Source of the DNA: Gammaproteobacteria bacterium
GTDB lineage: Bacteria > Pseudomonadota > Gammaproteobacteria > Eutrophobiales > Eutrophobiaceae
Length of the DNA: 64,000 nucleotides
Assembly (NCBI GenBank): GCA_965221455.1
Contig: OZ244890.1
Span: forward strand, 2,238,507-2,302,506
Reading direction: 5' to 3'
Numbering within the stretch: position 1 is the first letter of the stretch; the number at the start of each line of letters is the position of its first letter. This document shows positions 7,499 to 27,153 of the stretch, piece by piece. The notes under the pieces are model-generated. The model worked only from the letters and a program-made list of their open reading frames with translations, had not been told where the DNA came from and made no database searches. A program made the translations under genes and the position numbers.

Positions 7499-10400
7499 AT
7501 GAACAAAATAATTTCACCTATTGCCATTGATATGGGGGCGAAGAATACGGGGGTTTATCTTCAGCATTTTGAGCAAGGAGAAGATCCAACTACCAGCGGT
7601 AATAGTGCCGGGCGGACCATTGTGATTGACGGCGACAGTATTACCTGGTCACAGGTGAATAGAACACAGAAACGTCACCAGGTTAGAGGTAACAAAAGAC
7701 GCAAACTTGCCAAACGCTTGCTGCTGGTAATTCTAGGCAAATCTTATGGTATCTCCCCCACACGAGAGCAAGCAGATTTTCTGATGGGATTGATGAATCG
7801 GCGCGGTTATAACCGTTTAGTTGAGGACCTGGACGAGAAACTGATAAAACAACCCCTGGTTGCAGAGTATTTTGTAAAAAAACATGAGGATTTTTTCAAA
7901 AATCGCGATACCTTTTTCGATAATTTTATTGCATTGTCAAATGACATTGAAAAATGCAAAGCCCTCAAAGAGCAACTTATATTGTCGAAAAAAGAGGCAA
8001 AAAAAGCAGTAGATGACGACAAAGATGGTCAACAAGCATTCGCTGATGCGTATGACAACATGAAATCCGCTTTAGACAAGCAGATTAAGTCTGAAGATGA
8101 AGGGCACAAGCACCGTGAGGAGTATCTGAAAAATATCAAAAAGGATATTCAGGAGAATAGCTTACTCAATCCACTACTGAATGATGAATTAACCGCTGAA
8201 TGTATCGCTAATCTCATTGGTAACATCAGTAATTTACAGTTGCGGGTGTTGCGTAAATACTTTAATGACAAGCAGATGCAAAACAGTGATAAATGGCTAC
8301 CACAGAAACTGCATAAATTATTTTTCCGATGGATTCAAGGCTGGCACTGTAAGCAAGATGATGAAAAAGAGAAGCGTAATAAACTGTTGAAATTAAAGCA
8401 GCAGGATATTTTGAAAATTCTAGCCACATCTGCGCCTGAACTGACTATTCCACCCTACGAAGACCAGAACAACCGCATCAAGGAGACCATTAAGGATAAA
8501 ACCTTAAGGCTGAAACCATCTGCATTGGATAAGAAAATGAATAACTGGCTGGATATGACTCAAAAGATTGTGAAGCACTACTGTCTTCCGACTGACGACA
8601 GCCGTACTACAACTTTATTTTCTATCAATGAAAATATCGAGGACTGCACTCATAAAATGATACAAGGGGTATTAGATGATTATGAAAGCCGGAAATCAGC
8701 CAATATACTGCAAAGAATATTCGACCGGAGCAAATTCCTGGATCCTTACAAATTAAGGTTGTTATGTTCTCTTGATTCTTTAGAGCATGCCAAAGATGAC
8801 GCCAGGAAATCTTTGACCTTGTTAAAGCAACATATCGGTGACAACAATGCGCAAGCATTTATTTCACTTTGCAAATCCTACTATGCAGAAACAGAAATCG
8901 CCAGGCAGGGGTTGTGGTCAGATAACAAAGACAGTTTATTTTTTTGTTGCGACACCAATCCGCCACACAAAAGCAAGCTGCAACACAGGCTGGTCGGACA
9001 TATTGTTTGTAAAACACTATCAGAACCCGAATTAGAATCTTTCAAAAAAGATTGCTGGAGTGAAAAAATAACAGGCGCAAGGAAAACAGCCAAAAGCGTG
9101 GCAAAAAGCATAGAAGAAATTCGTAAAAAATACGGTAACGAATTTAATGATGTAATGAAAAGGATTAAACGCAGGGAATATGTGCTGAAAAGCAAACCCG
9201 AGGAAATTACAGAACAGCAAAAAAAAGGATGGGAAAAATATGAAGAAAAACATAAGAATGTAAAAACAGCGATTGAGGATGCTGCAAAAGTCGCTACACA
9301 TATCGCTGATTATTTCGAGCATGACGACGACAAGAAAGCGAAGTATGCTAACCCGTACAGCATTGCACAGTTGTACAACCATCTGGAAACGGATATTGGT
9401 GGATTCAGCAAAACCGATAGATATAACACCGAAGAAAATGCCTGGCGGAATGAAATCAGTGAAGAAATCCCTGAAAATAAAATTGCCAACGCGGTAAGAC
9501 TAACAAAAGACAGTGTACGCCCGTTTGATGGCATGTTGGGTCGCATACTGGAAAGGCAGGCATATGAAATCGCTCGGCATAAAATTGTTCAACTTGAAGG
9601 GTTGGGGATTGGTGAAAGTGGAGAAATGCTTATCCCCGTATTACTGGAACAAAATAAGTTTAAATTTGAAAAGAGTCTGCACGATATCAAAGGCGAAAAA
9701 AATGTTTCAACAAAAGCAAAAGACCGAGTCGAAGAAGGCGAGAAAAGACAACAAGAACAATGGGAAGATAAAGATAAACGGATCAAAGGAAATAAAATAT
9801 GTCCGTACACTGGCGAAACAATCGGTGTCGGCGAAATCGATCATATCATTCCTCAAGCTAAATCCAGGCAGCATGGCGATGTGGTATACAACTCCGAGGC
9901 TAATCTGCTTTATTGCTCGGGCAGGGGCAATCAAGAAAAAGGAGACAATAGATATTCTTTCGAGCAGTTAAATAGTGAGTATTTGCGAGAAGTTTTTGGT
10001 AATAAAAGTCCAGGAGACATAAAGCAGGAAATCCGACAGTTCATTAACAACCTGGATACAGATAATTTTTCCGGTTTTCATAATCTGGAAAGCCACGAGC
10101 AGAACTATCTGCGCCATGCCTTGTTTCTGCAAGACCTGGATGAGAAAACTTTCCCGTTACTTAATACTCGCTATAGAACTTTGGTCAATGGCACACAAGC
10201 GTATCTGGCTAAACTATTGGTTCGCGTATTAAGAGGCAAATATCCGAATGCAGAGTTCAAGGTGTATCAGATGGATGCACAGGAAGTCTCCAGGGTTCGG
10301 GATGTGTTGTGTAATAAGTACGAAGAATATAAAAAATCCGATAAACAACAAGGTGCCTTTTCCCATGTAATTGATGCGGCTATGGTGCTGGCGACCGCGC

Positions 10401-11872
10401 TACAAAACCAACAAGTGGCGGAAAGGCTGAAGACAGTAAATACAGTCGAGTTATCGGAGAATGCAGACTGGTTAAAAAAATTGTTGCCACAGGAAGCAAT
10501 AGTCCAACACATCAAGAGGAGAGCAAAATATCATAAGGATTTATCATCAACAAAAATTTTCAAGGAGACTATTTATGGCGAGCGATTTATGCCTGTTCTA
10601 CTGAATGATGGCAAACTTTTTTGTGGTTTTTCTCTGGATAATTGTATTGAAATTAATCCATTGATTAAAGGAGGTAAGGACGAAAATAAAAAGATAGAAA
10701 AGCAAAAGCGCGAGGACAACGAATATTTCAATCTGTTGAAAGAATTTTTATACACGGGTTCCACTCGGCGCAAAAACAAGGCATCGGTCAGTGGAAGTTT
10801 AGATGACTACCATGGAAAGTTTGGTTATTTGTCGGTGGATAAAAGCAAAGCATTGGCGCATTTACAAAAATGCGCCAAAGAAGTATGTGATGACGAGGAT
10901 ATTAAACAAGCAGAAGCATTGGAGGAGCTACGGTATTGTGTTGAAAAGAAAAATATCAAAAACTTGATTACCGGTAAGAAATTTATTTCCCAAAGTGACT
11001 TTGACAAATTTAAATTCGATATAGACGATATCACATTACCCGCTAAAGTAGATTGGGAAAGATTAATCAATTTTCCAGTCATAGACTGCCACGGTAAAAC
11101 CACCACAATGAAAACATGTTTCAGAGAACCGGCACAAGACTTTATTCCCCAGAAAAGTTGGGATAATTTATTCGAAGAATTTTTCCATACAAATAAAATG
11201 GAAAATTCAAACCATCATAAACGAGTACGAAAAGTATATTCCTTGCCGGTTATCTCCAGTCCATCAGGTGGGTTCAGAATCAAGCGAAAAAATCCCGTGA
11301 CCGGTGATGATGTCTATCAAGTAAGTGCCATTGAAAATAGTTACGCTTGTGGTTTTTCTCAAGATTCCGAAGGCAATATTGACATGAGCGAAAAAGGGAT
11401 TACTTTTGATCCTCAATTAAAATCCAGTGCTAATGTTGCCTATCTCGGGAAATCCGGCAAACCGCATATTGTGAAAAATTCGAATGATACCGATGTAGAA
11501 AAATTTGGTTCCTGCAGACGGGTAAATTTAGAGTCTGAGCATATTATGGAATGCAAGCTGACATTGGCAGAAGGTAAGCGGATTGATATTTCTATTATGG
11601 TTGGTAAATATCTCTTTAAGGAAATATGCGAATTTTCAGATATCAATTTTGACCAACCACCATCAAATCTTCAATTAGTATTTGAAGATGAAACAAAATG
11701 TAAGAAGTTTAAGCAACTATTGACAAAGAAAAAAATACCAATCCCAAGAATAGATAAGAATAAGGTGGGATTTGCTGTTCAATCCTTACCAAAAAAAGTA
11801 GAATTATCGTATCGAACATCTCTCACTGATCCTCTTCGAGACGCTTATAAATGCGGGGATCCGGTAACGTAG
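7499..11872 (+). CDS. cas9: Type II-B CRISPR-associated endonuclease Cas9
   Basis: 1457 aa. RuvC-I IAIDMGAKNTGV (Asp11, nt 7529-7531). Arg-rich bridge helix RTQKRHQVRGNKRRKLAKRLL. RuvC-II IPVLLEQNKF. HNH GEIDHIIPQAKS...NSEANLLYCSGRGNQEKGD (His782, nt 9842-9844). RuvC-III FSHVIDAAMV. Blocks LIGNISNLQLRVLRKYFNDK, TIPPYEDQNNR, VNGTQAYLAKLL and RKVYSLPVISS match Francisella novicida Cas9 as I recall it. Strong SD GGAAGGAAG upstream. Followed by cas1-cas2-cas4. Confidence 0.95.
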   Translation: MNKIISPIAIDMGAKNTGVYLQHFEQGEDPTTSGNSAGRTIVIDGDSITWSQVNRTQKRHQVRGNKRRKLAKRLLLVILGKSYGISPTREQADFLMGLMNRRGYNRLVEDLDEKLIKQPLVAEYFVKKHEDFFKNRDTFFDNFIALSNDIEKCKALKEQLILSKKEAKKAVDDDKDGQQAFADAYDNMKSALDKQIKSEDEGHKHREEYLKNIKKDIQENSLLNPLLNDELTAECIANLIGNISNLQLRVLRKYFNDKQMQNSDKWLPQKLHKLFFRWIQGWHCKQDDEKEKRNKLLKLKQQDILKILATSAPELTIPPYEDQNNRIKETIKDKTLRLKPSALDKKMNNWLDMTQKIVKHYCLPTDDSRTTTLFSINENIEDCTHKMIQGVLDDYESRKSANILQRIFDRSKFLDPYKLRLLCSLDSLEHAKDDARKSLTLLKQHIGDNNAQAFISLCKSYYAETEIARQGLWSDNKDSLFFCCDTNPPHKSKLQHRLVGHIVCKTLSEPELESFKKDCWSEKITGARKTAKSVAKSIEEIRKKYGNEFNDVMKRIKRREYVLKSKPEEITEQQKKGWEKYEEKHKNVKTAIEDAAKVATHIADYFEHDDDKKAKYANPYSIAQLYNHLETDIGGFSKTDRYNTEENAWRNEISEEIPENKIANAVRLTKDSVRPFDGMLGRILERQAYEIARHKIVQLEGLGIGESGEMLIPVLLEQNKFKFEKSLHDIKGEKNVSTKAKDRVEEGEKRQQEQWEDKDKRIKGNKICPYTGETIGVGEIDHIIPQAKSRQHGDVVYNSEANLLYCSGRGNQEKGDNRYSFEQLNSEYLREVFGNKSPGDIKQEIRQFINNLDTDNFSGFHNLESHEQNYLRHALFLQDLDEKTFPLLNTRYRTLVNGTQAYLAKLLVRVLRGKYPNAEFKVYQMDAQEVSRVRDVLCNKYEEYKKSDKQQGAFSHVIDAAMVLATALQNQQVAERLKTVNTVELSENADWLKKLLPQEAIVQHIKRRAKYHKDLSSTKIFKETIYGERFMPVLLNDGKLFCGFSLDNCIEINPLIKGGKDENKKIEKQKREDNEYFNLLKEFLYTGSTRRKNKASVSGSLDDYHGKFGYLSVDKSKALAHLQKCAKEVCDDEDIKQAEALEELRYCVEKKNIKNLITGKKFISQSDFDKFKFDIDDITLPAKVDWERLINFPVIDCHGKTTTMKTCFREPAQDFIPQKSWDNLFEEFFHTNKMENSNHHKRVRKVYSLPVISSPSGGFRIKRKNPVTGDDVYQVSAIENSYACGFSQDSEGNIDMSEKGITFDPQLKSSANVAYLGKSGKPHIVKNSNDTDVEKFGSCRRVNLESEHIMECKLTLAEGKRIDISIMVGKYLFKEICEFSDINFDQPPSNLQLVFEDETKCKKFKQLLTKKKIPIPRIDKNKVGFAVQSLPKKVELSYRTSLTDPLRDAYKCGDPVT

Positions 11873-11900
11873 CGATTGTGTCTATGCCGACATATTCCCC

Positions 11901-12887
11901 ATGCACGCCCACCTAACCCTAAGCGAATACGGCCAGTTTGTTGGTATTCGCAGTGAATGTTTGACAGTCAAGGAAGAGGGAGCAGTCAAGGAATATCCGC
12001 TTAATCGCATCAAAAGCATCCAGATTGCACGGCGTGGGGTGAGTTTTTCTTCCGATGTCATTATTGCATGCGCCAATCGCGGTATTAAATTATTTCTCAC
12101 CGATTTCAGGAATGAAGTGGTCGCCAGCTTATCGGGCACTCAGCAACACGCTGTGGTGCGCGTGCGTCAACAGCAATTCGCCTTTATCGACCGCCTCGAT
12201 ACCGCGACTTTGTCTGCGGTGATTATTGAAGGAAAAATCAACAACCAACGAGCTGTTTTACTGTACTTCAAAAAATACCACAGTGATAAAGCCGCATACA
12301 TTGACAACACAGCAGCGCAATTAAAAATGATTGCCCAACAAATCAAAACCAAATCATGGCAAAACTTTGATCATTGGCAGGATATTTTATTGGGACTGGA
12401 GGGACAGGCAGCGCACCTTTACTGGCAATGTCTGGTCGAGACAGCCTTGATGCCCGCCGGCTTCAAGAACAGGGTAGGGAGGCAAGCACAGGATGTCGGT
12501 AACAAGGCGTTAAATTACGGTTATGCCATCCTTTCTTCCTACGTGTGGAATGCCTTGTTGAATGCCGGGCTGGAACCCTATGCCGGTATTTTCCATGCAC
12601 AACGTGCTGGCAAACCCTCTCTGGTACTGGACATGATGGAAGAATATCGTGCGTGGGCGGTAGATCGAAATATTATCAAACAACGTAACGCATTACAGGA
12701 CACCGGTGAGTTGACACCGACCATCAAGAAAAAAATCATTGCTGATATCCATAAAACCTTCGCCACCCATTACCATTATCGCAAGCGCAAGATGCGTTTG
12801 GAAAGCATACTACAACGACAAATCTATCATCTTGCCGGTACGTTCTGCGGCGACAAGCGATATAAAGCCTATCATTTCAGGTGGTAG
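11901..12887 (+). CDS. cas1: CRISPR-associated endonuclease Cas1
   Basis: 328 aa, 28 nt after the cas9 stop. Typical Cas1 N-terminal beta domain (LTVKEEGAVKEYPLNRIKSIQIARRGVSFSSDVI) and C-terminal helical domain (ALNYGYAIL, MEEYRAWAVD). Confidence 0.92.
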   Translation: MHAHLTLSEYGQFVGIRSECLTVKEEGAVKEYPLNRIKSIQIARRGVSFSSDVIIACANRGIKLFLTDFRNEVVASLSGTQQHAVVRVRQQQFAFIDRLDTATLSAVIIEGKINNQRAVLLYFKKYHSDKAAYIDNTAAQLKMIAQQIKTKSWQNFDHWQDILLGLEGQAAHLYWQCLVETALMPAGFKNRVGRQAQDVGNKALNYGYAILSSYVWNALLNAGLEPYAGIFHAQRAGKPSLVLDMMEEYRAWAVDRNIIKQRNALQDTGELTPTIKKKIIADIHKTFATHYHYRKRKMRLESILQRQIYHLAGTFCGDKRYKAYHFRW

Positions 12888-12888
12888 C

Positions 12889-13197
12889 ATGGCACAGGCG
12901 AAATTATACAATGAGGTACTGGTCAGTTATGACATCACCGATACCAAACAACGCACCAGGTTATTCAACCAACTCAAAGACATCAGCCTGATCGCAATCC
13001 AGAAATCGGTATTCTGGGGATATTTAAACAAGGCTGAGGAAAACAGTGTGAAACGCCTGTTACGAGAGCACTGTGAGAAAACCGACAAGGCTTTTATCGC
13101 ACGGGTTAAATTAGCCGAACAGATCCGGAAAGATAACGGGATTGGGTATAACAAAACCGACTTTCCGCAGAAAATCGCCGAGTATCATGTCCTATAG
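12889..13197 (+). CDS. cas2: CRISPR-associated endoribonuclease Cas2
   Basis: ATG at 12889, one nt after the cas1 TAG. 102 aa, MAQAKLYNEVLVSYDITDTKQRTRLFNQLKDISLIAIQKSVFWGYL is a Cas2 ferredoxin-fold signature. The longer track ORF (12739) overlaps cas1 and is not used. Confidence 0.85.
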   Translation: MAQAKLYNEVLVSYDITDTKQRTRLFNQLKDISLIAIQKSVFWGYLNKAEENSVKRLLREHCEKTDKAFIARVKLAEQIRKDNGIGYNKTDFPQKIAEYHVL

Positions 13198-13768
13198 TTT
13201 ACCTGTGAGTTTGCTCCGGCAATATTGTTTCTGCCCGCGCATTCCCTATTTTCAGGAGCTGCTTAATCTCAATCCACCCCGTCCGGCATGGGTCAGGCAG
13301 GGGGAGGCGTTACATCGTCAACAAGAGAAAGTATTCAGGCACAGAACCTTACAACGCTTCAATCTGGTACAGGCACGGCAAGAGTTCAATGTATTTGTTA
13401 ACGCCGCTGAATTACGTATGCACGGGTTGATTGATAGCGTGCTGATCACCCCGCATGAAATCTATCCGCTGGAATTCAAATTAAGCGGACACAAACCGAC
13501 TCGTGGACAAATCATACAACTCACCGCCTACGCGATGGCGGCCGAACACCACTATAACCTGGCTTGTCGGCATGGATTTATGTTGTTTGAGCACAAGGGT
13601 AAAACCCATCCGATTACTTTCACGGCAGAACATAAAGCACAGGTGAAGCGCATTCGTGACCGTATTTTGGATGATTTGGAGCAATCCGTTCTGCCGGATA
13701 GTTCCGCGACACAAGCGCAATGCACCCAGTGCGAATATCTCAATCATTGTAACGATAGAGGATGGTAA
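13187..13768 (+). CDS. cas4: CRISPR-associated exonuclease Cas4 (RecB-like, 4-Cys)
   Basis: Start chosen at ATG 13187 (MSYSLPVSLLRQYCFCPRIPYF), overlapping the cas2 end by 11 nt. N-terminal Cys plus C-terminal CTQCEYLNHC cluster and IYPLEFK nuclease motif. Presence of cas4 defines subtype II-B. Confidence 0.88.
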   Translation: MSYSLPVSLLRQYCFCPRIPYFQELLNLNPPRPAWVRQGEALHRQQEKVFRHRTLQRFNLVQARQEFNVFVNAAELRMHGLIDSVLITPHEIYPLEFKLSGHKPTRGQIIQLTAYAMAAEHHYNLACRHGFMLFEHKGKTHPITFTAEHKAQVKRIRDRILDDLEQSVLPDSSATQAQCTQCEYLNHCNDRGW

Positions 13769-13784
13769 AAGGATTTTGTGGGAG

Positions 13785-13810
13785 AAAATTAAAACCCCGC
13801 CAGAGCGGGG
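13785..13810 (-). terminator. Rho-independent terminator of tracrRNA
   Basis: CCCCGC-tctg-GCGGGG on the minus strand, followed by TTTTAATTTT. The plus strand has no T-run after the stem, so it is not the cas4 terminator. Confidence 0.75.
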
Positions 13811-13894
13811 CACCATGCACAATGCAGATAGGTTTATCAATCTTTATTTTAGATGATTTCAGTGCATCAATTGTTGTTTAGGATGTGTCGATGC
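13787..13894 (-). ncRNA. tracrRNA: tracrRNA (predicted)
   Basis: Plus-strand 13856-13891 (ATTTCAGTGCATCAATTGTTGTTTAGGATGTGTCGA) is an imperfect inverted copy of the array repeat. A minus-strand RNA therefore carries an anti-repeat to GUUUCAGUUGCUAGUUUGUUGAUUUAGGAUGUGUCGG: 7 bp, bulge, 2 bp, internal loop, 6 bp, bulge, 14 bp. Downstream on the minus strand are AAUCAUCUAAAAUAAAGAUUGA (resembles the F. novicida tracrRNA nexus) and a terminator hairpin. The ends are predictions. Confidence 0.8.
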
Positions 13895-14013
13895 CAAGCC
13901 AGCTTAATAAAAAAATTCGCAAAATTCAACCTTTCCCGGCATTTTCATGATTTTCGCAAAAATACCAAAAAAAATCGCTATAAAGTCAGGCAAAATCAAT
14001 ACTTCATGATAGG
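13895..14013. other. AT-rich cas-proximal flank of the CRISPR array (candidate acquisition leader)
   Basis: About 120 bp, A/T-rich with poly-A runs, directly abutting repeat 1. The opposite array end carries the degenerate repeat. Confidence 0.45.
13901..13929 (-). promoter_or_regulatory. Predicted sigma70 promoter of tracrRNA
   Basis: Minus strand TTGAAT (13924-13929), 17 nt spacer, TAAGCT (13901-13906). Predicted start about 13894, a few nt upstream of the anti-repeat. Confidence 0.55.
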
Positions 14014-17000
14014 CCGACACATCCTAAATCAACAAACTAGCAACTGAAACTGCTTATCGACTGAATAAGAAAAAAATAATCTTTCCCCGACACATCCTAA
14101 ATCAACAAACTAGCAACTGAAACTGGTTAGTCTTTTTGACGTGGACTCGTCCATTGCCTCCGACACATCCTAAATCAACAAACTAGCAACTGAAACGAGT
14201 CTGACCATCCGCCCTGCCAAACCTTCCACCTGTGCCGACACATCCTAAATCAACAAACTAGCAACTGAAACGGTCTTCGACAAGGAGCTGAACAGATTTA
14301 AGACTTCCGACACATCCTAAATCAACAAACTAGCAACTGAAACGAATCTCTGTAAGAGTAGCCGCACTCAAAAAACAAACCGACACATCCTAAATCAACA
14401 AACTAGCAACTGAAACCGTGAATATCATCATCACCCGTGATGAGTTTTTAGGACCGACACATCCTAAATCAACAAACTAGCAACTGAAACTCATGCAAGC
14501 TGGTAATCAATCAAAGTTCATGGACCGACACATCCTAAATCAACAAACTAGCAACTGAAACTTGGTTCCCACGTGTCAATCGCATCTATGATCAGCCGAC
14601 ACATCCTAAATCAACAAACTAGCAACTGAAACTTGTTTGGTGATGGCTGCAGCACTTGCCCCGACATCCGACACATCCTAAATCAACAAACTAGCAACTG
14701 AAACTCGGATCCCGGTAGTAGACTTTAACATCTCGTGTCCGACACATCCTAAATCAACAAACTAGCAACTGAAACAACACCGATCACATCACCATTAAAC
14801 TGCCCGTATCCGACACATCCTAAATCAACAAACTAGCAACTGAAACCTTGCAGACTGCTACGGAACCTGTCCCATGCGTTGCCGACACATCCTAAATCAA
14901 CAAACTAGCAACTGAAACCGCCCATGTCGAGATTGTGAGACTTGCATATAATAGCCGACACATCCTAAATCAACAAACTAGCAACTGAAACCTGGGTGAT
15001 GGATGAGGGTCACCACCTCTTACGCCGACACATCCTAAATCAACAAACTAGCAACTGAAACCACGGTCGTATATTTGCGGAGCTGAGGAAGCAGCCGACA
15101 CATCCTAAATCAACAAACTAGCAACTGAAACTTCGGGTAGATTTTCATGCAGGTTAATCATGCCCCGACACATCCTAAATCAACAAACTAGCAACTGAAA
15201 CTGCGCCTCTTGTTTTTTATCGCTCGTCGTTTATCCCGACACATCCTAAATCAACAAACTAGCAACTGAAACGTGTTCGTCCTGAAACTCTGAAAGTAAC
15301 TCAATGTCCGACACATCCTAAATCAACAAACTAGCAACTGAAACCTACTGACTATAATCGACAACCTCCCCTGTACTCCCGACACATCCTAAATCAACAA
15401 ACTAGCAACTGAAACAATTCCACTGCATTTCTAAAATCTGCTGGACTTCTCCGACACATCCTAAATCAACAAACTAGCAACTGAAACGGCTAAGTGGTTG
15501 GCATTGGGTTAAGCGTTTTGCACCGACACATCCTAAATCAACAAACTAGCAACTGAAACCAGCTACTACAATGCCAGGCAACCTGACCTTTAACCGACAC
15601 ATCCTAAATCAACAAACTAGCAACTGAAACCACGAAATGCCTCGCAAACTCTGCACATCTCTCAAACCGACACATCCTAAATCAACAAACTAGCAACTGA
15701 AACGTTGATGTTATTGTCTTAACGTCCATTAAATGAGTCCCGACACATCCTAAATCAACAAACTAGCAACTGAAACTTGTCATTGATTAAAGCCGTCTTC
15801 CCCCTGTGAGGCCCGACACATCCTAAATCAACAAACTAGCAACTGAAACCTGAACATCTCTTCATAACTTATCAACTTGCCTTCCGACACATCCTAAATC
15901 AACAAACTAGCAACTGAAACTGAGGTTTTTGTTGTCATGTTTTTGACTCAGCACCGACACATCCTAAATCAACAAACTAGCAACTGAAACAGAGGGTTAC
16001 CAATTCCCCCAAGGCCGCCCAAAACCGACACATCCTAAATCAACAAACTAGCAACTGAAACTGTAAACCCTTGAAAAAATTAAGTTAAATTTAAATCCGA
16101 CACATCCTAAATCAACAAACTAGCAACTGAAACTAATCGATTCGATATGTGTTTTGGTGAAAGTTGTGCCCGACACATCCTAAATCAACAAACTAGCAAC
16201 TGAAACCATGAACGTTCACTCTCAGAGGTCACCGGTTAGCACCCGACACATCCTAAATCAACAAACTAGCAACTGAAACAAACGGCCGTACAAGAAGCGC
16301 ATGTACTTGCCTGCCGACACATCCTAAATCAACAAACTAGCAACTGAAACTCACGAATATGACATCAGTCGTTACGGCGGTCGGTACCGACACATCCTAA
16401 ATCAACAAACTAGCAACTGAAACCAAAAATCCTGTTTGTCCGCACCTTATCCAAGTTTCCGACACATCCTAAATCAACAAACTAGCAACTGAAACTTCGC
16501 CGCCGGGATTTACTCAGATGATGATTACGTCCGACACATCCTAAATCAACAAACTAGCAACTGAAACACCGCCAGAAGAAAATCATGCTGGCGACAATTA
16601 CGCCGACACATCCTAAATCAACAAACTAGCAACTGAAACCAAAATATGCCGGATCGCGCATGAACCGCGCTGCACCGACACATCCTAAATCAACAAACTA
16701 GCAACTGAAACTTGAAAAAGAGCCGCCAGACAGCGAGATCCTATCTCCCGACACATCCTAAATCAACAAACTAGCAACTGAAACAACAAAGGCACTGTAA
16801 CCCTGTCCATTCGCCGACACCGACACATCCTAAATCAACAAACTAGCAACTGAAACTGAGTTTGATACCACAAGTCATTATGTCTAAGGCACCGACACAT
16901 CCTAAATCAACAAACTAGCAACTGAAACCAAGATACTTATGATTAGCAACGGTTGTATAGTATCCGACACATCCTAAATCAACAAACTAGCAACTGAAAC

Positions 17001-19016
17001 ACGGCAGAAAGCGTTTTAAAGTCGCCAGTACCAGTCCGACACATCCTAAATCAACAAACTAGCAACTGAAACTGGTCTAAAACTGCACGAAGCAATCTTA
17101 CATAGGTACCGACACATCCTAAATCAACAAACTAGCAACTGAAACGCAAATAAACAATGACTAAAAGTACCAGAAGGTAGCCGACACATCCTAAATCAAC
17201 AAACTAGCAACTGAAACAGGCGTTGAATTTGCTTTTCTAGTCGGTATTGAGGCCGACACATCCTAAATCAACAAACTAGCAACTGAAACGATGAGGCACA
17301 TTATCTGTACAATATCCTCCCCAGTCCGACACATCCTAAATCAACAAACTAGCAACTGAAACCTGACTACGCGGAGAAAGGCGCACAGATAGTAGTCCGA
17401 CACATCCTAAATCAACAAACTAGCAACTGAAACACAGTTTATACAAACGCAGAATACTGGGAGAATCACCCGACACATCCTAAATCAACAAACTAGCAAC
17501 TGAAACTGAACTTTTTTCATATCTATCACCTTTTTTAACTCCGACACATCCTAAATCAACAAACTAGCAACTGAAACTGAACCTTTTTCATCATCATCAC
17601 CTATTTTTAATTCCGACACATCCTAAATCAACAAACTAGCAACTGAAACGTGTGCCTTTCGTCTGTACCTGCCAGAAACTCGCCCGACACATCCTAAATC
17701 AACAAACTAGCAACTGAAACTCGAGCTGGCATCACACAAGTAAGTTCTTCAATGAGCCGACACATCCTAAATCAACAAACTAGCAACTGAAACAATGTGG
17801 TTAGGCTGGCTGATGGGAGCTATAAGACCGACACATCCTAAATCAACAAACTAGCAACTGAAACAAACTCGAAGCGTGGGCATTGCTTGCGCCGCCGAAC
17901 CGACACATCCTAAATCAACAAACTAGCAACTGAAACAGAGAATCCTCCCAGTACCCCGCTTAGAGGCAAGCCGACACATCCTAAATCAACAAACTAGCAA
18001 CTGAAACTGGTCTAACACTGCACGAAGCAATCTTACATAGGTCCGACACATCCTAAATCAACAAACTAGCAACTGAAACTGGAAGTGCTTCACAGCTTCA
18101 CAGGCGAGAGGGTTTCCCGACACATCCTAAATCAACAAACTAGCAACTGAAACTCCTAGTGGCGGAGCAATTAGATACCGACAACCGCTCCGACACATCC
18201 TAAATCAACAAACTAGCAACTGAAACTCCGCTGTTGTTGATCCGGTTGTGACTTCTGCACGGCCGACACATCCTAAATCAACAAACTAGCAACTGAAACA
18301 CAGCGACTGAGCCGGGGGTTTCAGTGCCTTGGCGCCGACACATCCTAAATCAACAAACTAGCAACTGAAACTTTAGGTCGATATAAGAGTATTGAAAATC
18401 TCGAAACCGACACATCCTAAATCAACAAACTAGCAACTGAAACTTTTAAGTTTAAATTAATCCCTATAACACCAACCACCGACACATCCTAAATCAACAA
18501 ACTAGCAACTGAAACTCTCCATACTCGGTAGTGTCATCTTGCATTTCGTCCGACACATCCTAAATCAACAAACTAGCAACTGAAACTTTTATAGTTCTGC
18601 TCAAAATAAGCCGGATCACGCCCGACACATCCTAAATCAACAAACTAGCAACTGAAACTTCACTTTATTCATCAAGCCTTCAAAAGTAACCCCCGACACA
18701 TCCTAAATCAACAAACTAGCAACTGAAACGGTCAAAGGCATCACCGCCGCGTGAGAGTTTACCCCCCGACACATCCTAAATCAACAAACTAGCAACTGAA
18801 ACTGAAATTGCCCCCGATGCTTTGGTTGTAGAAGCTCCCGACACATCCTAAATCAACAAACTAGCAACTGAAACCGGGACAAATAAACCAATGCACATCT
18901 TAACAGTACCGACACATCCTAAATCAACAAACTAGCAACTGAAACCCAGTCACTCATCATGAGCCTGTTCATAAATCTGCCGACACATCCTAAATCAACA
19001 AACTAGCAACTGAAAC
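14014..19016 (-). CRISPR. CRISPR array, 70 identical 37-nt repeats with 69 internal spacers of 33-38 nt (type II-B repeat)
   Basis: Plus-strand repeat CCGACACATCCTAAATCAACAAACTAGCAACTGAAAC. Repeat starts were tallied by hand from 14014 to 18980 with unit period 70-75 bp, and I noticed no repeat variants. The minus-strand form GTTTCAGTTGC... matches the 5-prime end of the F. novicida crRNA repeat and pairs with the predicted tracrRNA, hence minus strand. Confidence 0.97.
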
Positions 19017-19050
19017 GCGGACACTTGACATCTATTCAAGTTAAAAAAGA

Positions 19051-19087
19051 GCGACATATCTGAAATAAAAAAAGCCCCGCATCAGCG
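19051..19087. repeat. Degenerate terminal CRISPR repeat
   Basis: GCGACATATCTGAAATAAAAAAA matches 17 of the first 23 repeat positions, and the last 14 positions (GCAACTGAAAC part) are lost. It is separated from repeat 70 by a 34-nt spacer (19017-19050) and overlaps the terminator hairpin. Confidence 0.7.
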
Positions 19088-19098
19088 GGGCTTTTTTT
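19065..19098. terminator. Bidirectional Rho-independent terminator
   Basis: AAAAAAA-GCCCCGC-atca-GCGGGGC-TTTTTTT. A symmetric A/T run on both sides lets it terminate the minus-strand lipoprotein gene and any plus-strand read-out of the array. Confidence 0.8.
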
Positions 19099-19190
19099 AC
19101 TAATGACAAATCTCAACCTAACAAATCAGCAAGGTTTCCCATGTGTATGTCATGTAAGGTTTGTATGTACACATACTGCAAGGAAATACA

Positions 19191-19472
19191 CTATTTCCTC
19201 ATTGCTTTTTCAAACATGCGATCAAGTTTCGCAGTGTTATCGTTACAGCATTCCAGTGCCGTGGTTGAATTTGACTTGGCCTCTGCAGCAGCTGAGTTCG
19301 CCTCATTTGCAACTGACAGTGCGTTATTAGCGGTAGCGGAAGCTGAACGTGCTTCAGCAAGTGCCGCATCAGCTGTTGCCTGAAGCGCATCTATTCGAGA
19401 CATGTCAGCACAGCCGCCGACGATGGCCATGGCAAATGCCAGCGTGAAAATTTTAGTGATTTTTACCAACAT
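19191..19472 (-). CDS. OprI/Lpp-like alanine-zipper outer membrane lipoprotein
   Basis: Start taken at MLVKITKIFTLAFAMAIVGGC (lipobox VGGC). Ala-rich coiled coil and C-terminal RMFEKAMRK resemble Pseudomonas OprI (RMLEKASRK). Confidence 0.75.
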   Translation of the reverse strand: MLVKITKIFTLAFAMAIVGGCADMSRIDALQATADAALAEARSASATANNALSVANEANSAAAEAKSNSTTALECCNDNTAKLDRMFEKAMRK

Positions 19473-19623
19473 AGTTTCGTTCTCCCGTTGAGTCATTGTA
19501 CCAGTATGAGGCAGTTCAAATTTCTCATGCGCGGATGATGACTTATTTCACATGTGATATCAATTATTTTATCCCGCAAACGGATGTGGTTTTGAGATAC
19601 GACGACAGTTAACATCAGGGAAA

Positions 19624-19998
19624 TTAACGACGGTTTTTTGCAGGAGACTTTTTCATTCTCTTTTCATGGTTCTCCCTGATAAAACTAGCCAGCGATTGTT
19701 CAAAAGGTAGAATTGGTTTTAAATCGCAGTAATCATCCAGCCAGGCCAGAATATCGTCAAGATTCATTTCTCCGGCAATCCTGTAAGTATCGGGTAGTTG
19801 TACGTTGAAAGCGGTTAAATAACCCATGATATAGTCTTTATATCCTTGTTCTTCTTCAGTGTCTCTGGAGATATTATAGCTATGACAAGATTTATTACCT
19901 TTACCCCATATCGCGAAGTGACCGTTACTGTCAACTGCCTGCGATTGCAACGGGAACATGGCGGATAAAAACAAAATACTATATAGATGCCTGGTCAT
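19624..19998 (-). CDS. Secreted hypothetical protein
   Basis: 124 aa with signal peptide (LQSQA/VD) and two Cys. No family recognised with confidence. Confidence 0.5.
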   Translation of the reverse strand: MTRHLYSILFLSAMFPLQSQAVDSNGHFAIWGKGNKSCHSYNISRDTEEEQGYKDYIMGYLTAFNVQLPDTYRIAGEMNLDDILAWLDDYCDLKPILPFEQSLASFIRENHEKRMKKSPAKNRR

Positions 19999-20235: not shown

Positions 20236-20808
20236 TCAATTATTCTGGAACGGCATGGGTCTGTTACTAAATTGAGATTGAAGAAATTCCATTTGATCCG
20301 CCAAAATTTTGCGATTTGACAGTGCAAGATATTCCGCCCAGTTAGGAATAAATGGCACGGCTAAAAGTGGCATGTTCGCTTCTTCAGGTCGTCGGTTACC
20401 TTTTCTTGAATTACAGTTTTTGCATGCGGTGACGACATTTGACCATCTGTCTTTGCCGCCTTTCGAAAGCGGGTGTACATGATCTCGCGTTAAATCAGCT
20501 TCGCGGAAGTTTCCACCGCAATACATGCATAGATGCGCATCTCTCAGGAATAATTCACGATTTGTCAGAGGGGGCGAGTCGCGCCGAAATTCTTTTTTAA
20601 TGACTGAGCGTTTAACAGCAATGATTGAGTTCACTTCGATGAGTGAAAGTTTACCTGTGATTCTGTTGGTACCGCCTCGAAAGGGAAACATGCTGTCGCC
20701 GGCAGTCCAGGCAATCATATCTCGTGCATAGAGACATATGGCCTCCTGCCAGGGTATCCATTTTACAGGTTGGCCCGCAGTATTGAGCCTCAGTATAAGT
20801 GGCGACAT
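20236..20808 (-). CDS. HNH endonuclease family protein
   Basis: 190 aa. CMYCGG...LTRDHVHPLSKGGKDRWSNVVTACKNCNSRKGNR is a canonical HNH/CxxC zinc motif. Confidence 0.8.
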   Translation of the reverse strand: MSPLILRLNTAGQPVKWIPWQEAICLYARDMIAWTAGDSMFPFRGGTNRITGKLSLIEVNSIIAVKRSVIKKEFRRDSPPLTNRELFLRDAHLCMYCGGNFREADLTRDHVHPLSKGGKDRWSNVVTACKNCNSRKGNRRPEEANMPLLAVPFIPNWAEYLALSNRKILADQMEFLQSQFSNRPMPFQNN

Positions 20809-21749: not shown

Positions 21750-22559
21750 TCATCCCGTTTCTTTACTATGCTCGATTTTGGCATAGGCCGAATGGTTGTG
21801 AATTGATTCAAAATTTTCGGACTCGACAACGTAGGATGTGATTCTATTATCGCGATTAAATTGAACAGCAACATCCCTGACAATGTCTTCAACAAATTTC
21901 GGGTTATCGTAGGCTCTTTCAGTGACATATTTTTCATCGGGTCTTTTTAGAAGACCGTAAAGTTCACAGGAAGCCACTTTTTCAACCATATCAATCAGTT
22001 CTTCTATCCACAGAAATTCTTTGGTCCGTACGCAGATAGTGATATGAGATCGCTGATTATGCGCACCATAGTCAGAAATACTTTTTGAGCAAGGACAAAG
22101 CGTCGTCACCGGCACCACGACTTTGACCAGGACAGAAGACTGTTCATTATTGCATTCACCAATAAAAGATACTTGATAGTCCATCAGGCTCTTGACACCT
22201 GAAATCGGGGCTGCCTTGTTAATAAAATAGGGGAAACTCATTTCAATATGCCCCTCTTTTGCATTCAGACGTTCAGTCATCGTTGCAAGCATCCTTTTAA
22301 AGGATTTAACCGTGATTTCGTATTCATGCTGATTTAGAATTTCAACGAAACGTGACATATGTGTGCCTTTAAAGTCATGCGGCAGACTGACATACATATT
22401 AAAGTTCGCGATGGTGTGTTGTTCACCTCCGGATCGATCACCGACCACGACCGGATGGCGGATATCCTTGATGCCGACTTGATTGATTGCGATATGACGT
22501 GTGTCCCGGATATTTTGGGTGTCCGGGATGGGAGTGGGTTTTTTTGCTGTCTGTAACAT
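21750..22559 (-). CDS. folE2: GTP cyclohydrolase FolE2 (type IB)
   Basis: 269 aa. N-terminal IPDTQ, HMSRF, and TLCPCSK motifs typical of FolE2/MptA. Confidence 0.85.
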
Positions 22560-26654: not shown

Positions 26655-26850
26655 ATTCCCCTCCCCCTTACCAGGGGGAGAGCTTTTGATACGGGACACT
26701 CTTTTACTGTCACTACACAATGCAGGTTGTAGTGGTCCAGTATGGCATGTGATAGTAATAGGTAGACTATAATTTGGACATGAGGAAGCATCAAATGCTG
26801 ACAAAAACACGTAAACACACCACCCCACTGGTGCTTGTGCAACAAGCACC
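26655..26850 (+). mobile_element. IS3-family left-end remnant with truncated orfA N-terminus
   Basis: G/C palindrome CCCTCCCCCTTACCAGGGGGAG, TTTTACTGTCACT (26702) and TGTAGTGGTC (26728-26737) recur at 30952/30988 in front of a recognisable IS3 orfA. The short reading frame here, MLTKTRKHTTP, parallels MTKERKHFTP of that orfA. Confidence 0.55.
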
Positions 26851-26851
26851 A

Positions 26852-27095
26852 GCACCGCAGCACCGCAGCACCGCAGCACCGCAGCACCGCAGCACCGCAG
26901 CACCGCAGCACCGCAGCACCGCAGCACCGCAGCACCGCAGCACCGCAGCACCGCAGCACCGCAGCACCGCAGCACCGCAGCACCGCAGCACCGCAGCACC
27001 GCAGCACCGCAGCACCGCAGCACCGCAGCACCGCAGCACCGCAGCACCGCAGCACCGCAGCACCGCAGCACCGCAGCACCGCAGCACCGCAGCAC
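26852..27095. repeat. Perfect octanucleotide microsatellite (GCACCGCA) x30 plus a partial unit
   Basis: 30 uninterrupted 8-bp units at 26852-27091 plus GCAC. All six frames are open across it, which explains the pile of repetitive ORFs in the track. It ends 58 nt before the ATG of the large secreted protein. Confidence 0.97.
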
Positions 27096-27153
27096 TAGCG
27101 CACTAACGCAGACCGCGCCACTACCAGGAACCTGGTCAGGGGCATGGCGCGGG

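What the first reader, a model, noticed from the sequence alone, without database searches (positions are those of the whole stretch)
7499..19098. Complete, compact type II-B CRISPR-Cas locus with a very large array
cas9 (1457 aa), cas1, cas2 and cas4 are packed with 28-nt, 1-nt and -11-nt junctions. They are followed by an antisense tracrRNA gene and 70 identical 37-nt repeats, about 5 kb of array. Cas4 plus a Francisella-type Cas9 defines subtype II-B, the rarest Cas9 subtype, for which only a few members have been studied (F. novicida, Legionella). Identical repeats, intact catalytic residues (Asp11, His782, RuvC-II Glu, RuvC-III His/Asp) and a 69-spacer memory all argue for an active system. 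The protein is noticeably shorter than FnCas9 (1629 aa from memory), so it may be a distinct ortholog with its own PAM.
Basis: partly seen in the sequence, partly recalled or inferred. Interest (0 to 1): 0.8.

Follow-up and report, generated by a model that had tools for sequence, protein, structure and literature searches.

The report
Intact type II-B CRISPR-Cas9 locus
This is a real, complete and apparently working type II-B CRISPR-Cas9 immune system with a 70-repeat memory array in an uncultured marine-type gammaproteobacterium: a new member of a known, uncommon kind, whose relatives also hint at how II-B arrays grow and are read.

Summary
cas9 (1457 aa), cas1, cas2 and cas4 sit at 7499-13768 with junctions of 28, 1 and -11 nt. 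An antisense tracrRNA lies at about 13783-13894, followed by 70 identical 37-nt repeats (14014-19016) with 69 unique spacers. Cas9 scores above the curated II-B cut-off (TIGR03031), and Cas4 matches a type-II-specific model. All RuvC and HNH catalytic residues are conserved, and the nearest solved structures are PsCas9 and FnCas9. Subtype II-B is therefore confirmed.

It is a new member, not a new kind. The closest full-length relatives are 48-56% identical (sponge and mussel symbionts), and some of them carry arrays of 52-83 repeats. The size of 1457 aa is typical; FnCas9 is the long outlier. The PAM-interacting domain is a rare variant (2-3 clusters among 1.84 billion representatives), but it keeps both arginines that read GG in PsCas9. 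No protospacer was found, so the PAM is unknown.

By-product from 42-44 II-B loci: the cas-proximal repeat is never decayed (0/34), while the cas-distal one often is (11/34). A two-box motif (TTTGCGAA) sits at fixed distances from the cas-proximal repeat. 33 of 41 repeats carry a -10-like TAnnnT at positions 25-27. This suggests a II-C-like architecture, which a 2026 paper calls undetermined for II-B.

The parts
7499..11872 (+). cas9 (Csx12-type, type II-B), 1457 aa. RuvC residues are D11, E717, H956 and D959; HNH residues are D781, H782 and N811. The PI domain (about aa 1285-1457) is a rare variant that keeps R1361 and R1417.
11901..12887 (+). cas1, 328 aa.
   Evidence: TIGR00287 at 203.6 bits (cut-off 71.7) and Pfam Cas_Cas1.
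12889..13197 (+). cas2, 102 aa.
   Evidence: TIGR01573 at 32.4 bits (cut-off 24.5) and Pfam CRISPR_Cas2.
13187..13768 (+). cas4, 193 aa. It has an N-terminal Cys pair, a C-terminal CX2CX5C and a D...ExK motif.
   Evidence: TIGR00372 at 100 bits (cut-off 65) and PADLOC Cas4_II at E 3.7e-69.
13783..13894 (-). Predicted tracrRNA. It comprises the anti-repeat (13892-13853), the conserved II-B core CUGAAAUCAUCUAAAAUAAAGAUUGA, a small hairpin, and a terminator hairpin (13811-13794) followed by a U-run.
   Evidence: Duplex with the repeat is -40.2 kcal/mol against -14.5 +/- 3.3 for shuffles. Terminator. The same core sits at the same place in about 29 other fetched II-B loci, and the following hairpin covaries. 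No Rfam family matches. Expression has not been shown.
13901..13929 (-). Putative tracrRNA promoter: TTGAAT (13929-13924), 17 nt, TAAGCT (13906-13901).
   Evidence: The position is conserved in relatives, where the -10 is TATAAT in L006, L042 and L014. This is inferred, not shown.
13916..13961 (.). Two conserved leader boxes reading TTTTGCGAA on the - strand: box 2 at 13916-13924 and box 1 at 13953-13961. They lie 90 and 53 nt from the cas-proximal repeat.
   Evidence: A box at nt 90-94 in 33 of 42 non-redundant II-B loci and at nt 54-58 in 31 of 42, against a background of 0.04 per 160 nt. Function is unknown.
14014..19016 (-). CRISPR array of 70 identical 37-nt repeats and 69 unique spacers of 33-38 nt. 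The crRNA sense (GTTTCAGTTGCTAG...) is on the - strand, so it is read towards the cas genes. Each repeat has a -10-like TAGGAT at repeat positions 25-30.
19017..19066 (-). Decayed terminal unit: a 34-nt pseudo-spacer (19017-19050) plus a 16-nt repeat remnant (19051-19066). The remnant keeps the first 10 and last 6 nt of the + strand repeat and has lost 21 internal nt, including the -10-like hexamer.
   Evidence: Read directly. Local alignment score is 12, against 5-9 for typical flanks. This marks the trailer (old) end.
19070..19098 (.). Bidirectional rho-independent terminator (AAAAAAGCCCCGCATCAGCGGGGCTTTTTTT) between the Lpp/OprI-like lipoprotein gene (19191-19496, -) and the array.
   Evidence: It is not a general II-B feature (4 of 34 loci).

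Best explanation
This is a chromosomal, complete and most likely active type II-B CRISPR-Cas adaptive immune system of an uncultured gammaproteobacterium.

Working model:
- The cas9-cas1-cas2-cas4 operon is transcribed on the + strand.
- The tracrRNA and the crRNAs are transcribed on the - strand, towards the cas genes.
- The tracrRNA pairs with each repeat through a lower stem, an internal loop and a 20-bp upper stem. RNase III and Cas9 then process the duplex, and Cas9:crRNA:tracrRNA cleaves PAM-flanked DNA with its RuvC and HNH sites.
- New spacers are inserted by Cas1-Cas2(-Cas4) at the cas-proximal repeat (14014), next to a conserved leader of about 120 nt that also holds the tracrRNA promoter. 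The far end (19017-19066) is the decayed trailer.
- crRNA transcription probably starts from a -10-like element inside each repeat, as in type II-C.

What is shown and what is inferred:
- Shown in silico: gene identities, catalytic residues, repeat/anti-repeat pairing, strand sense by homology, and the asymmetry between the two ends of the array.
- Inferred: expression, the site of spacer acquisition, per-repeat promoters, and the PAM (NGG-like is likely, because both GG-reading arginines are kept).
For: Identity:
- Curated II-B models are passed.
- The nearest structures are PsCas9 (E 2e-153) and FnCas9.
- All 120 listed homologues carry the Csx12 domain.

Integrity:
- ATG starts and tight junctions.
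- Catalytic columns are invariant.
- 70 identical repeats.
- Spacer pairs 43/56 and 37/64 hit variants or overlaps of one target.
- No self-target within the 64-kb window.

Strand sense:
- The repeat ends in CTGAAAC on the cas9 strand in nearly all of about 45 II-B arrays.
- The tracrRNA core is conserved.
- The F. novicida array is experimentally antisense to the cas operon (PMC3737331).

Polarity:
- The cas-proximal repeat is mutated in 0 of 34 arrays and the cas-distal one in 11 of 34. Extra decayed repeats lie only beyond the distal end, in at least 5 of 34.
- The proximal flank is 74% conserved among Cas9s that are only about 50-55% identical.
- Leader boxes sit at fixed distances from the cas-proximal repeat.
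- Co-occurring strains share the leader but not the first spacers, and share only the decayed distal unit.

Promoter:
- TAnnnT lies at repeat offset 25-27 in 33 of 41 distinct repeats, and many read TATAAT.

PAM:
- PsCas9 R1316 and R1369 map onto the invariant W R1361 and R1417 (PMC11544209).
Against: - No expression data exist.
- No protospacer was found in GenBank phages, PLSDB, four IMG/VR scans or the fetched loci. Targets and PAM are therefore unknown.
- The one internal clue comes from overlapping spacers 37 and 64. It gives a 3' flank of AGCAGAA, which is not NGG. It comes from a variant genome and is weak.
- This repeat's -10-like hexamer (TAGGAT) is weaker than in relatives, and the conserved hexamer could instead serve integrase recognition.
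- No shared spacers were found between any two arrays, so polarity rests on repeat decay and flank conservation rather than on observed acquisition order.
Confidence: 0.88

Rival explanations
1. The array follows the classical layout. A single leader and promoter sit at the cas-distal end (19017-19100), new spacers enter there, and one long pre-crRNA is transcribed towards the cas genes.
For: The crRNA sense runs from that end. In L003 and L004 a truncated upstream gene could supply read-through transcription. For II-B, the sites of transcription and acquisition are explicitly undetermined in the literature (PMC13187072).
Against: Distal flanks are not conserved between relatives (mean information 0.11 bit against 0.27). 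Decayed repeats occur only at this end. In this window only about 50 nt separate a terminator from the first repeat, and no promoter-like site is detected there. The conserved leader boxes lie at the other end.
Confidence: 0.15
2. The locus works mainly as a Francisella-style gene regulator, in which Cas9, tracrRNA and a scaRNA-like RNA repress a host gene such as the adjacent Lpp/OprI-like lipoprotein, rather than as phage immunity.
For: F. novicida II-B Cas9 represses a lipoprotein operon through a scaRNA (cited in PMC6737040 and PMC10120712). A repeat remnant (19051-19066) lies next to a lipoprotein gene at 19191-19496.
Against: The 69 diverse spacers and 70 perfect repeats argue for ongoing adaptive immunity. 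The tracrRNA-to-array interval is a conserved leader and promoter, not a scaRNA gene. The remnant lacks its own promoter and terminator, and the pseudo-spacer's PAM-proximal seed has no match in the window beyond a 9-mer. Its 10-nt match upstream of cas9 is mid-spacer and at chance level.
Confidence: 0.04
3. The locus is a recently inactivated or silent relic. The genes are intact but not expressed, or Cas9 is blocked by an anti-CRISPR.
For: No protospacer matches were found, and there are no expression data.
Against: There are no frameshifts or substitutions at catalytic positions, and the repeats are perfectly homogeneous over 5 kb. A 95%-identical cas9 occurs in the same genomic context in another sample, although that 3x-coverage contig splits the gene into several called ORFs. 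Missing matches are expected for an under-sampled environmental host.
Confidence: 0.06

Closest known systems
PsCas9 type II-B system of Parasutterella secunda (PDB 8UMF, 9KO9, 9KOR; PMC10482872, PMC11544209)
   Same: It has a Csx12-type Cas9 and a cas9-cas1-cas2-cas4 operon, and was identified with the same TIGR03031 model. It is the best solved relative (E 2e-153 over residues 5-1298). Its PI fold is the best structural match to the model of this PI domain (prob 1.00). Both PAM-reading arginines are conserved.
   Different: Sequence identity is low: the wider non-clade II-B relatives are only 31-37% identical. The last 160 aa or so are not alignable by single-sequence HMMER. The host is a marine-type gammaproteobacterium rather than a gut betaproteobacterium. 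PAM and cleavage pattern are untested here.
FnCas9 type II-B system of Francisella novicida U112 (PDB 5B2O)
   Same: It is the same subtype, with 37-nt repeats beginning GTTTCAGTTGC and a tracrRNA between cas4 and the array. The array is transcribed antisense to the cas operon (PMC3737331).
   Different: FnCas9 is 1629 aa and only partly alignable (E 1e-52, residues 610-1286). Francisella has a scaRNA with a regulatory role, and none is evident here.
II-B loci of sulfur-oxidising and methanotrophic invertebrate or sponge symbionts (Ca. Thiodubiliella, Bathymodiolus symbionts, Ca. Spongiihabitans, Methylococcales sponge symbionts; L002-L006, L014, L035, L042)
   Same: These are the closest full-length Cas9s (48-56% identity). 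Their repeats are related, and they share the same tracrRNA core, the same leader block (74% column identity) and large arrays of up to 83 repeats. Some share the rare PI-domain type.
   Different: The repeat sequence differs and no spacers are shared. Most of these Cas9s are 1500-1600 aa with an extra insertion of about 70 aa. About half carry the common PI type, so PI domains have been swapped within the clade.
Type II-C arrays of Neisseria meningitidis and Campylobacter jejuni
   Same: The array is read towards the cas genes. Spacers are added at the transcriptionally last, cas-proximal repeat, a promoter lies in each repeat, and the oldest repeat is often mutated or preceded by a terminator (PMC12080349). 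The same asymmetry and a repeat-embedded -10-like hexamer are seen here.
   Different: II-C lacks cas4 and has a different Cas9 clade and different repeats. In II-B this architecture is inferred here, not demonstrated. The -10-like box lies at positions 25-31, which would place starts at the repeat-spacer junction rather than inside the spacer.

Membership tests
Type II-B CRISPR-Cas | Cas9 of the Csx12 subfamily | tested here: met
   NCBIfam TIGR03031 equivalog at 491.4 bits against a cut-off of 399.4. Pfam PF21069 Csx12 at E 8e-134. PADLOC Cas9b at E 1e-147.
Type II-B CRISPR-Cas | Adaptation module cas1-cas2-cas4 downstream of cas9, with no csn2 | tested here: met
   Cas1, Cas2 and Cas4 all score above curated cut-offs, and Cas4 matches the type-II-specific model Cas4_II. 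No further ORF lies between cas4 and the array.
Type II-B CRISPR-Cas | 37-nt repeats beginning GTTTCAG in crRNA sense (Chylinski 2013, PMC3737331) | tested here: met
   70 copies of 37 nt. Positions 2-6 (TTTCA) are invariant across 41 distinct II-B repeats.
Type II-B CRISPR-Cas | tracrRNA with an anti-repeat between cas4 and the array, on the strand opposite to cas | tested here: met
   Anti-repeat duplex of -40.2 kcal/mol (z about -7.7), a terminator, and a core conserved with other II-B loci. Transcription itself cannot be tested here.
Type II-B CRISPR-Cas | Intact RuvC (D, E, H, D) and HNH (D/H...N) catalytic residues | tested here: met
   D11, E717, H956, D959, D781/H782 and N811 lie in invariant or near-invariant columns.
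Type II-B CRISPR-Cas | RNA-guided dsDNA cleavage with a 3' G-rich PAM and staggered ends | not testable with these tools
   The only indirect evidence is that the PsCas9 PAM arginines are conserved as R1361 and R1417. No protospacers were found.
Francisella-type scaRNA regulatory module | A separate small RNA gene with a repeat-like segment, its own promoter and terminator, and partial complementarity to a host target | tested here: not met
   The interval 13893-14013 is a conserved leader and promoter. The distal repeat remnant has no promoter or terminator of its own and no seed match in the window. The rest of the genome was not available.
II-C-like array architecture (acquisition at the transcriptionally last repeat; a promoter in each repeat) | The decayed (oldest) repeat lies at the transcription-upstream end, and the conserved leader lies at the downstream, cas-proximal end | tested here: met
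   Repeats are mutated in 0 of 34 arrays at the proximal end and 11 of 34 at the distal end. Extra decayed repeats occur only distally. Leader boxes sit at fixed distances from the proximal repeat. In this window there is a remnant at 19051-19066.
II-C-like array architecture (acquisition at the transcriptionally last repeat; a promoter in each repeat) | A functional promoter inside each repeat | tested here: inconclusive
   TAnnnT lies at offset 25-27 in 33 of 41 repeats, and this window has TAGGAT. No transcription-start data exist, and the hexamer could serve another function.

The most novel reading that the evidence does not exclude
Type II-B arrays in general, with this locus as a clean example, are built like II-C arrays. 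Spacers would be integrated at the cas-proximal repeat under the direction of a subtype-wide two-box leader: quasi-palindromic TTTGCGAA sites about 55 and 92 nt from the repeat, the outer one embedded in the tracrRNA promoter. Each crRNA would be transcribed towards that leader from a -10 element inside the preceding repeat. In addition, this clade would diversify its PAM by swapping a rare PI-domain type.
Probability: 0.45. Interest if true: 0.6.

Novelty: new member of a known kind. Interest (0 to 1): 0.4.

Why it matters
II-B Cas9s are uncommon: 80 of about 2,260 type II loci in one census (PMC10120712). They are valued because FnCas9 and PsCas9 cut with staggered ends and high fidelity. 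A new ortholog that is about 35% identical to PsCas9, with a rarely sampled PAM-interacting domain, a defined tracrRNA and 69 natural guides, is a ready candidate for PAM and activity profiling.

More generally, a 2026 paper states that the place of spacer acquisition and the mode of array transcription in II-B 'remain to be determined' (PMC13187072). This locus and its relatives give a concrete, testable answer: a cas-proximal leader with two conserved boxes, a decayed cas-distal end, and a -10-like box in each repeat.

Tried and rejected
- **Protospacers and PAM.** I ran the whole array against GenBank phages and PLSDB plasmids. I ran four spacer cores against IMG/VR and all spacers against the window and all fetched loci. 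Nothing beyond chance turned up.
- **The exact repeat in JGI metagenomes** gave nothing.
- **Single-protein genome scan.** It returned no confirmed relative, so I repeated it with an alignment.
- **Exact-protein look-ups** of Cas9, Cas2, the lipoprotein and ParE are not on record, so the source sample stays unknown. ParE shows only that the contig is 2.5 Mb and that the nearest relatives (91%) are unnamed Gammaproteobacteria.
- **Rfam.** No family matched at gathering thresholds, and only chance matches appeared at E <= 10.
- **Shared spacers to read acquisition order.** None were shared between any pair of 18 clade arrays.
- **A terminator upstream of the array as a general II-B device.** I rejected this, as it occurs in only 4 of 34 loci.
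- **scaRNA or autoregulation.** The pseudo-spacer's 10-nt match upstream of cas9 is mid-spacer and at chance level.
- **The '83% coverage' of relatives.** It is not a divergent C-terminus but an insertion of about 70 aa in the relatives that splits the BLAST alignment.
- **The tool's promoter hit inside the anti-repeat.** It is not above expectation from shuffles.

Full report

The + strand carries four tightly packed ORFs, all starting with ATG:

| Gene | Coordinates | Length |
|---|---|---|
| cas9 | 7499-11872 | 1457 aa |
| cas1 | 11901-12887 | 328 aa |
| cas2 | 12889-13197 | 102 aa |
| cas4 | 13187-13768 | 193 aa |

The junctions are 28, 1 and -11 nt, exactly as reported. The 37-mer CCGACACATCCTAAATCAACAAACTAGCAACTGAAAC occurs 70 times without a mismatch between 14014 and 19016, where shuffles give 0. 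The 69 spacers are all different and 33-38 nt long, with a mode of 35.

After the last repeat come a 34-nt pseudo-spacer, a 16-nt repeat remnant (19051-19066, the first 10 and last 6 nt of the repeat) and a bidirectional terminator at 19070-19098.

**2. What is it?**

- *Curated models.* Cas9 passes the NCBIfam equivalog for II-B Cas9/Csx12 (TIGR03031, 491 bits against a cut-off of 399). This is the same model that was used to discover PsCas9 (PMC10482872). It also hits the Pfam Csx12 lobe (E 8e-134), HNH_4 and PADLOC Cas9b. Cas1, Cas2 and Cas4 pass their cut-offs, and Cas4 best matches the type-II-specific Cas4_II model at E 4e-69.
- *Solved relatives.* The best solved relatives are PsCas9 (8UMF, 9KO9; E 2e-153 over residues 5-1298) and, more distantly, FnCas9 (E 1e-52).
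- *Catalytic residues.* In a 21-sequence alignment of II-B Cas9s, E717, D781, H782, N811, H956 and D959 are invariant and D11 is nearly invariant.
- *Cas4.* It has the N-terminal Cys pair, a D...ExK motif and a C-terminal CX2CX5C.
- *Genomic setting.* The surrounding 64 kb is ordinary gammaproteobacterial chromosome, with an RND pump, an L,D-transpeptidase, parE/parC, yoaA, lolCE, comEC and lpxK. ParE places the window on a 2.5-Mb contig whose nearest relatives (91%) are unnamed Gammaproteobacteria.

**3. tracrRNA and strand sense.**

The sequence at 13853-13892 is an imperfect reverse complement of the repeat. Read on the - strand it gives an anti-repeat, then AUCAUCUAAAAUAAAGAUUGA, a small hairpin and a GC hairpin with a U-run at 13811-13794.

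The repeat:anti-repeat duplex forms a lower stem, an internal loop and a 20-bp upper stem with one bulge. It folds at -40.2 kcal/mol, against -14.5 +/- 3.3 for shuffled anti-repeats.

The core CTGAAATCATCTAAAAT(A/C)AAG occurs at the same relative place in about 29 other fetched II-B loci from several phyla. The hairpin that follows it covaries: 8-12 sequences per pair carry compensatory changes. Rfam has no family for it.

The crRNA sense is therefore GTTTCAGTTGCTAG... on the - strand, antisense to the cas operon. The same orientation holds in nearly all of about 45 II-B arrays examined. It was shown experimentally for F. novicida (PMC3737331).

**4. How close are its relatives?**

- The exact Cas9 is not on record.
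- A 95%-identical partial copy lies in the same RND-YkuD-cas9 context on an ENA contig.
- The next relatives are only 48-56% identical: Ca. Thiodubiliella and Bathymodiolus symbionts, Ca. Spongiihabitans, Methylococcales sponge symbionts and a Halioglobus MAG.
- Their apparent 83% coverage is an artefact of an insertion of about 70 aa in those proteins; both halves align.
- Typical II-B Cas9s are 1400-1550 aa, so 1457 aa is normal and FnCas9 (1629 aa) is the outlier.
- Large arrays are common in this clade at 83, 60 and 52 repeats. This one is the second largest of about 45.

**5. The PAM question.**

No protospacer was found anywhere.

The last 160 residues or so do not align to PsCas9 or FnCas9 by single-sequence HMMER. 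A search of 1.84 billion representative proteins with residues 1285-1457 found only two clusters at E < 1e-10. The PI domain is thus a rarely sampled variant (YACGF...AYLGKSGKP...LTLAEGKRIDI...IPIPR...ELSYRTS). It is shared with four close relatives, while sister Cas9s carry the common FDEWR...GTKDR...GKPRSNLF type. Two Spongiihabitans Cas9s are far more similar across the central region than in the PI domain, where the alignment nearly breaks down. This indicates a PI-domain swap.

The fold is nevertheless the II-B PI fold. An AlphaFold2 model (pLDDT 77, above 88 for residues 120-243) matches PsCas9 best at probability 1.00, and FnCas9 next.

A profile alignment puts the two PsCas9 arginines that read the GG of NGG (R1316 and R1369, PMC11544209; chain residues 1336 and 1389) onto the only invariant arginines of the domain, R1361 and R1417 here. 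A G-rich, NGG-like PAM is therefore the default expectation.

One weak contrary hint comes from the overlapping spacers 37 and 64. They imply a 3' flank of AGCAGAA in a variant target. Spacers 43 and 56 differ only at one base and at the 5' end, which fits a ruler anchored at the PAM side.

**6. Which end of the array grows, and how is it read?**

This goes beyond the finding, but it decides the mechanism. [quoted passage not shown] For II-C, spacers enter at the transcriptionally last (cas-proximal) repeat, each repeat has a promoter, and the oldest repeat is often mutated or preceded by a terminator (PMC12080349). Four lines of evidence suggest the same layout in II-B.

(a) *Repeat decay.* In 34 complete II-B arrays the cas-proximal repeat is never mutated (0/34), and the cas-distal one is mutated in 11/34. 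Additional decayed repeats lie beyond the distal end in at least 5/34 and beyond the proximal end in 0/34. This window has its remnant at 19051-19066.

(b) *Flank conservation.* The 120-nt interval between anti-repeat and array is 74% conserved among loci whose Cas9s are only 50-55% identical. The distal flanks are unrelated.

(c) *Leader boxes.* Across 42 non-redundant II-B loci from Gammaproteobacteria, Leptospira, Kiritimatiellae, Verrucomicrobiota and others:
- TTTGCGAA (at most 1 mismatch) lies 90-94 nt from the cas-proximal repeat in 33 loci.
- A second copy, in either orientation, lies at 54-58 nt in 31 loci.
- The background is 0.04 per 160 nt.
- In this window the boxes are at 13916-13924 and 13953-13961.
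- The outer box lies in the spacer of the putative tracrRNA promoter, TTGAAT-17-TAAGCT (TATAAT in three relatives).

(d) *Co-occurring strains.* In one mussel-symbiont-type metagenome, three contigs share the identical leader but differ from the first spacer on. Contigs that share the distal flank share only the decayed terminal unit.

On transcription, 33 of 41 distinct II-B repeats have TAnnnT at crRNA-sense offset 25-27 and many read TATAAT. No other offset exceeds 6. Here the hexamer is TAGGAT. With TTCAGT at positions 3-8 as a weak -35, starts would fall at the repeat-spacer junction.

In this window the distal remnant has lost exactly the segment holding that hexamer, and a terminator sits just upstream. 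This would silence an 'extraneous' crRNA from the pseudo-spacer. However, terminators at this place are not general (4/34). All of this is inference: no two arrays shared spacers, and no RNA data exist.

**7. Rivals.**

- A classical distal leader is disfavoured by points (a) to (d).
- A Francisella-like regulatory role is unsupported. No scaRNA gene lies between tracrRNA and array, and the remnant has neither promoter nor terminator. The pseudo-spacer's seed has no target in the window, and its 10-nt match upstream of cas9 is at chance level. The adjacent Lpp/OprI-like lipoprotein gene is probably coincidental.
- A silent relic cannot be excluded without expression data. It is unlikely, given intact genes and 5 kb of perfectly homogeneous repeats.

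**8. Verdict.**

It is a new member of a known, uncommon kind: II-B made up 80 of about 2,260 type II loci in one census (PMC10120712). It has a rare PI-domain variant and a very clean locus anatomy.

Its own novelty is modest. The comparative by-product, a II-C-like polarity with a subtype-wide two-box leader and a repeat-embedded -10, addresses a question stated as open and can be tested directly with this locus.

Noticed in passing
window 26850-27089 (tract) with 26780-30789 (gene): A perfect octanucleotide tract, (CAGCACCG)x30, lies between a TATAAT-like box with two ATGs (26780, 26795) and a 1211-aa ORF that has a signal-peptide-like start (27154-30789). With 30 units the upstream ATG frame stops after 108 aa. 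With 29 or 32 units it fuses into a protein of 1333 or 1341 aa. It looks like a slipped-strand phase-variation switch for a large secreted or surface protein.
   Followed up: partly
window 13916-13924 and 13953-13961; same positions in L002-L081: A quasi-palindromic TTTGCGAA/TTCGCAAA box pair lies at fixed distances (about 55 and 92 nt) from the cas-proximal repeat in about three quarters of 42 II-B loci from several phyla. The outer box lies inside the putative tracrRNA promoter. Its binding partner and function are unknown, and no paper mentioning it in this context was found.
   Followed up: partly
P0004 (L003) vs P0021 (L004); window cas9 residues about 1285-1457: Two Ca. Spongiihabitans Cas9s have identical repeats and near-identical leaders, and are far more similar across the central region than in the PAM-interacting domain, where the alignment nearly breaks down. 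This points to PI-domain swapping within the clade. The window's PI type is found in only 2-3 clusters among 1.84 billion representative proteins.
   Followed up: partly
window 19191-19496 (-), 19624-19998 (-), 20236-20808 (-): Three genes lie at the cas-distal end of the array: an alanine-zipper Lpp/OprI-like outer-membrane lipoprotein gene, a 124-aa ORF with no family match, and a stand-alone HNH endonuclease with weak PtuB-like hits and no PtuA partner. No defence system is recognised there.
   Followed up: partly
L004 about 21793-21950 (cas-distal flank of its array); the same in L003: In the two Spongiihabitans loci the array abuts the 5' part of a gene beginning MENNNPLLDFSGLPRFNEIKPEHIEPAVDYML. 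From memory this resembles an oligopeptidase-A N-terminus; it was not tested. The array seems to have truncated a host gene whose promoter would read into the array in crRNA sense.
   Followed up: no
L001 8658-15296: The only near-identical cas9 (95%) lies on a 3x-coverage ENA contig. There it is split into several ORFs and followed by a second Csx12 fragment. This is probably long-read frameshift or duplication error rather than biology.
   Followed up: no
window 30458-30770: A 168-bp tandem duplication (1.9 copies, 90% identical) lies in the 3' end of the 1211-aa ORF.
   Followed up: no
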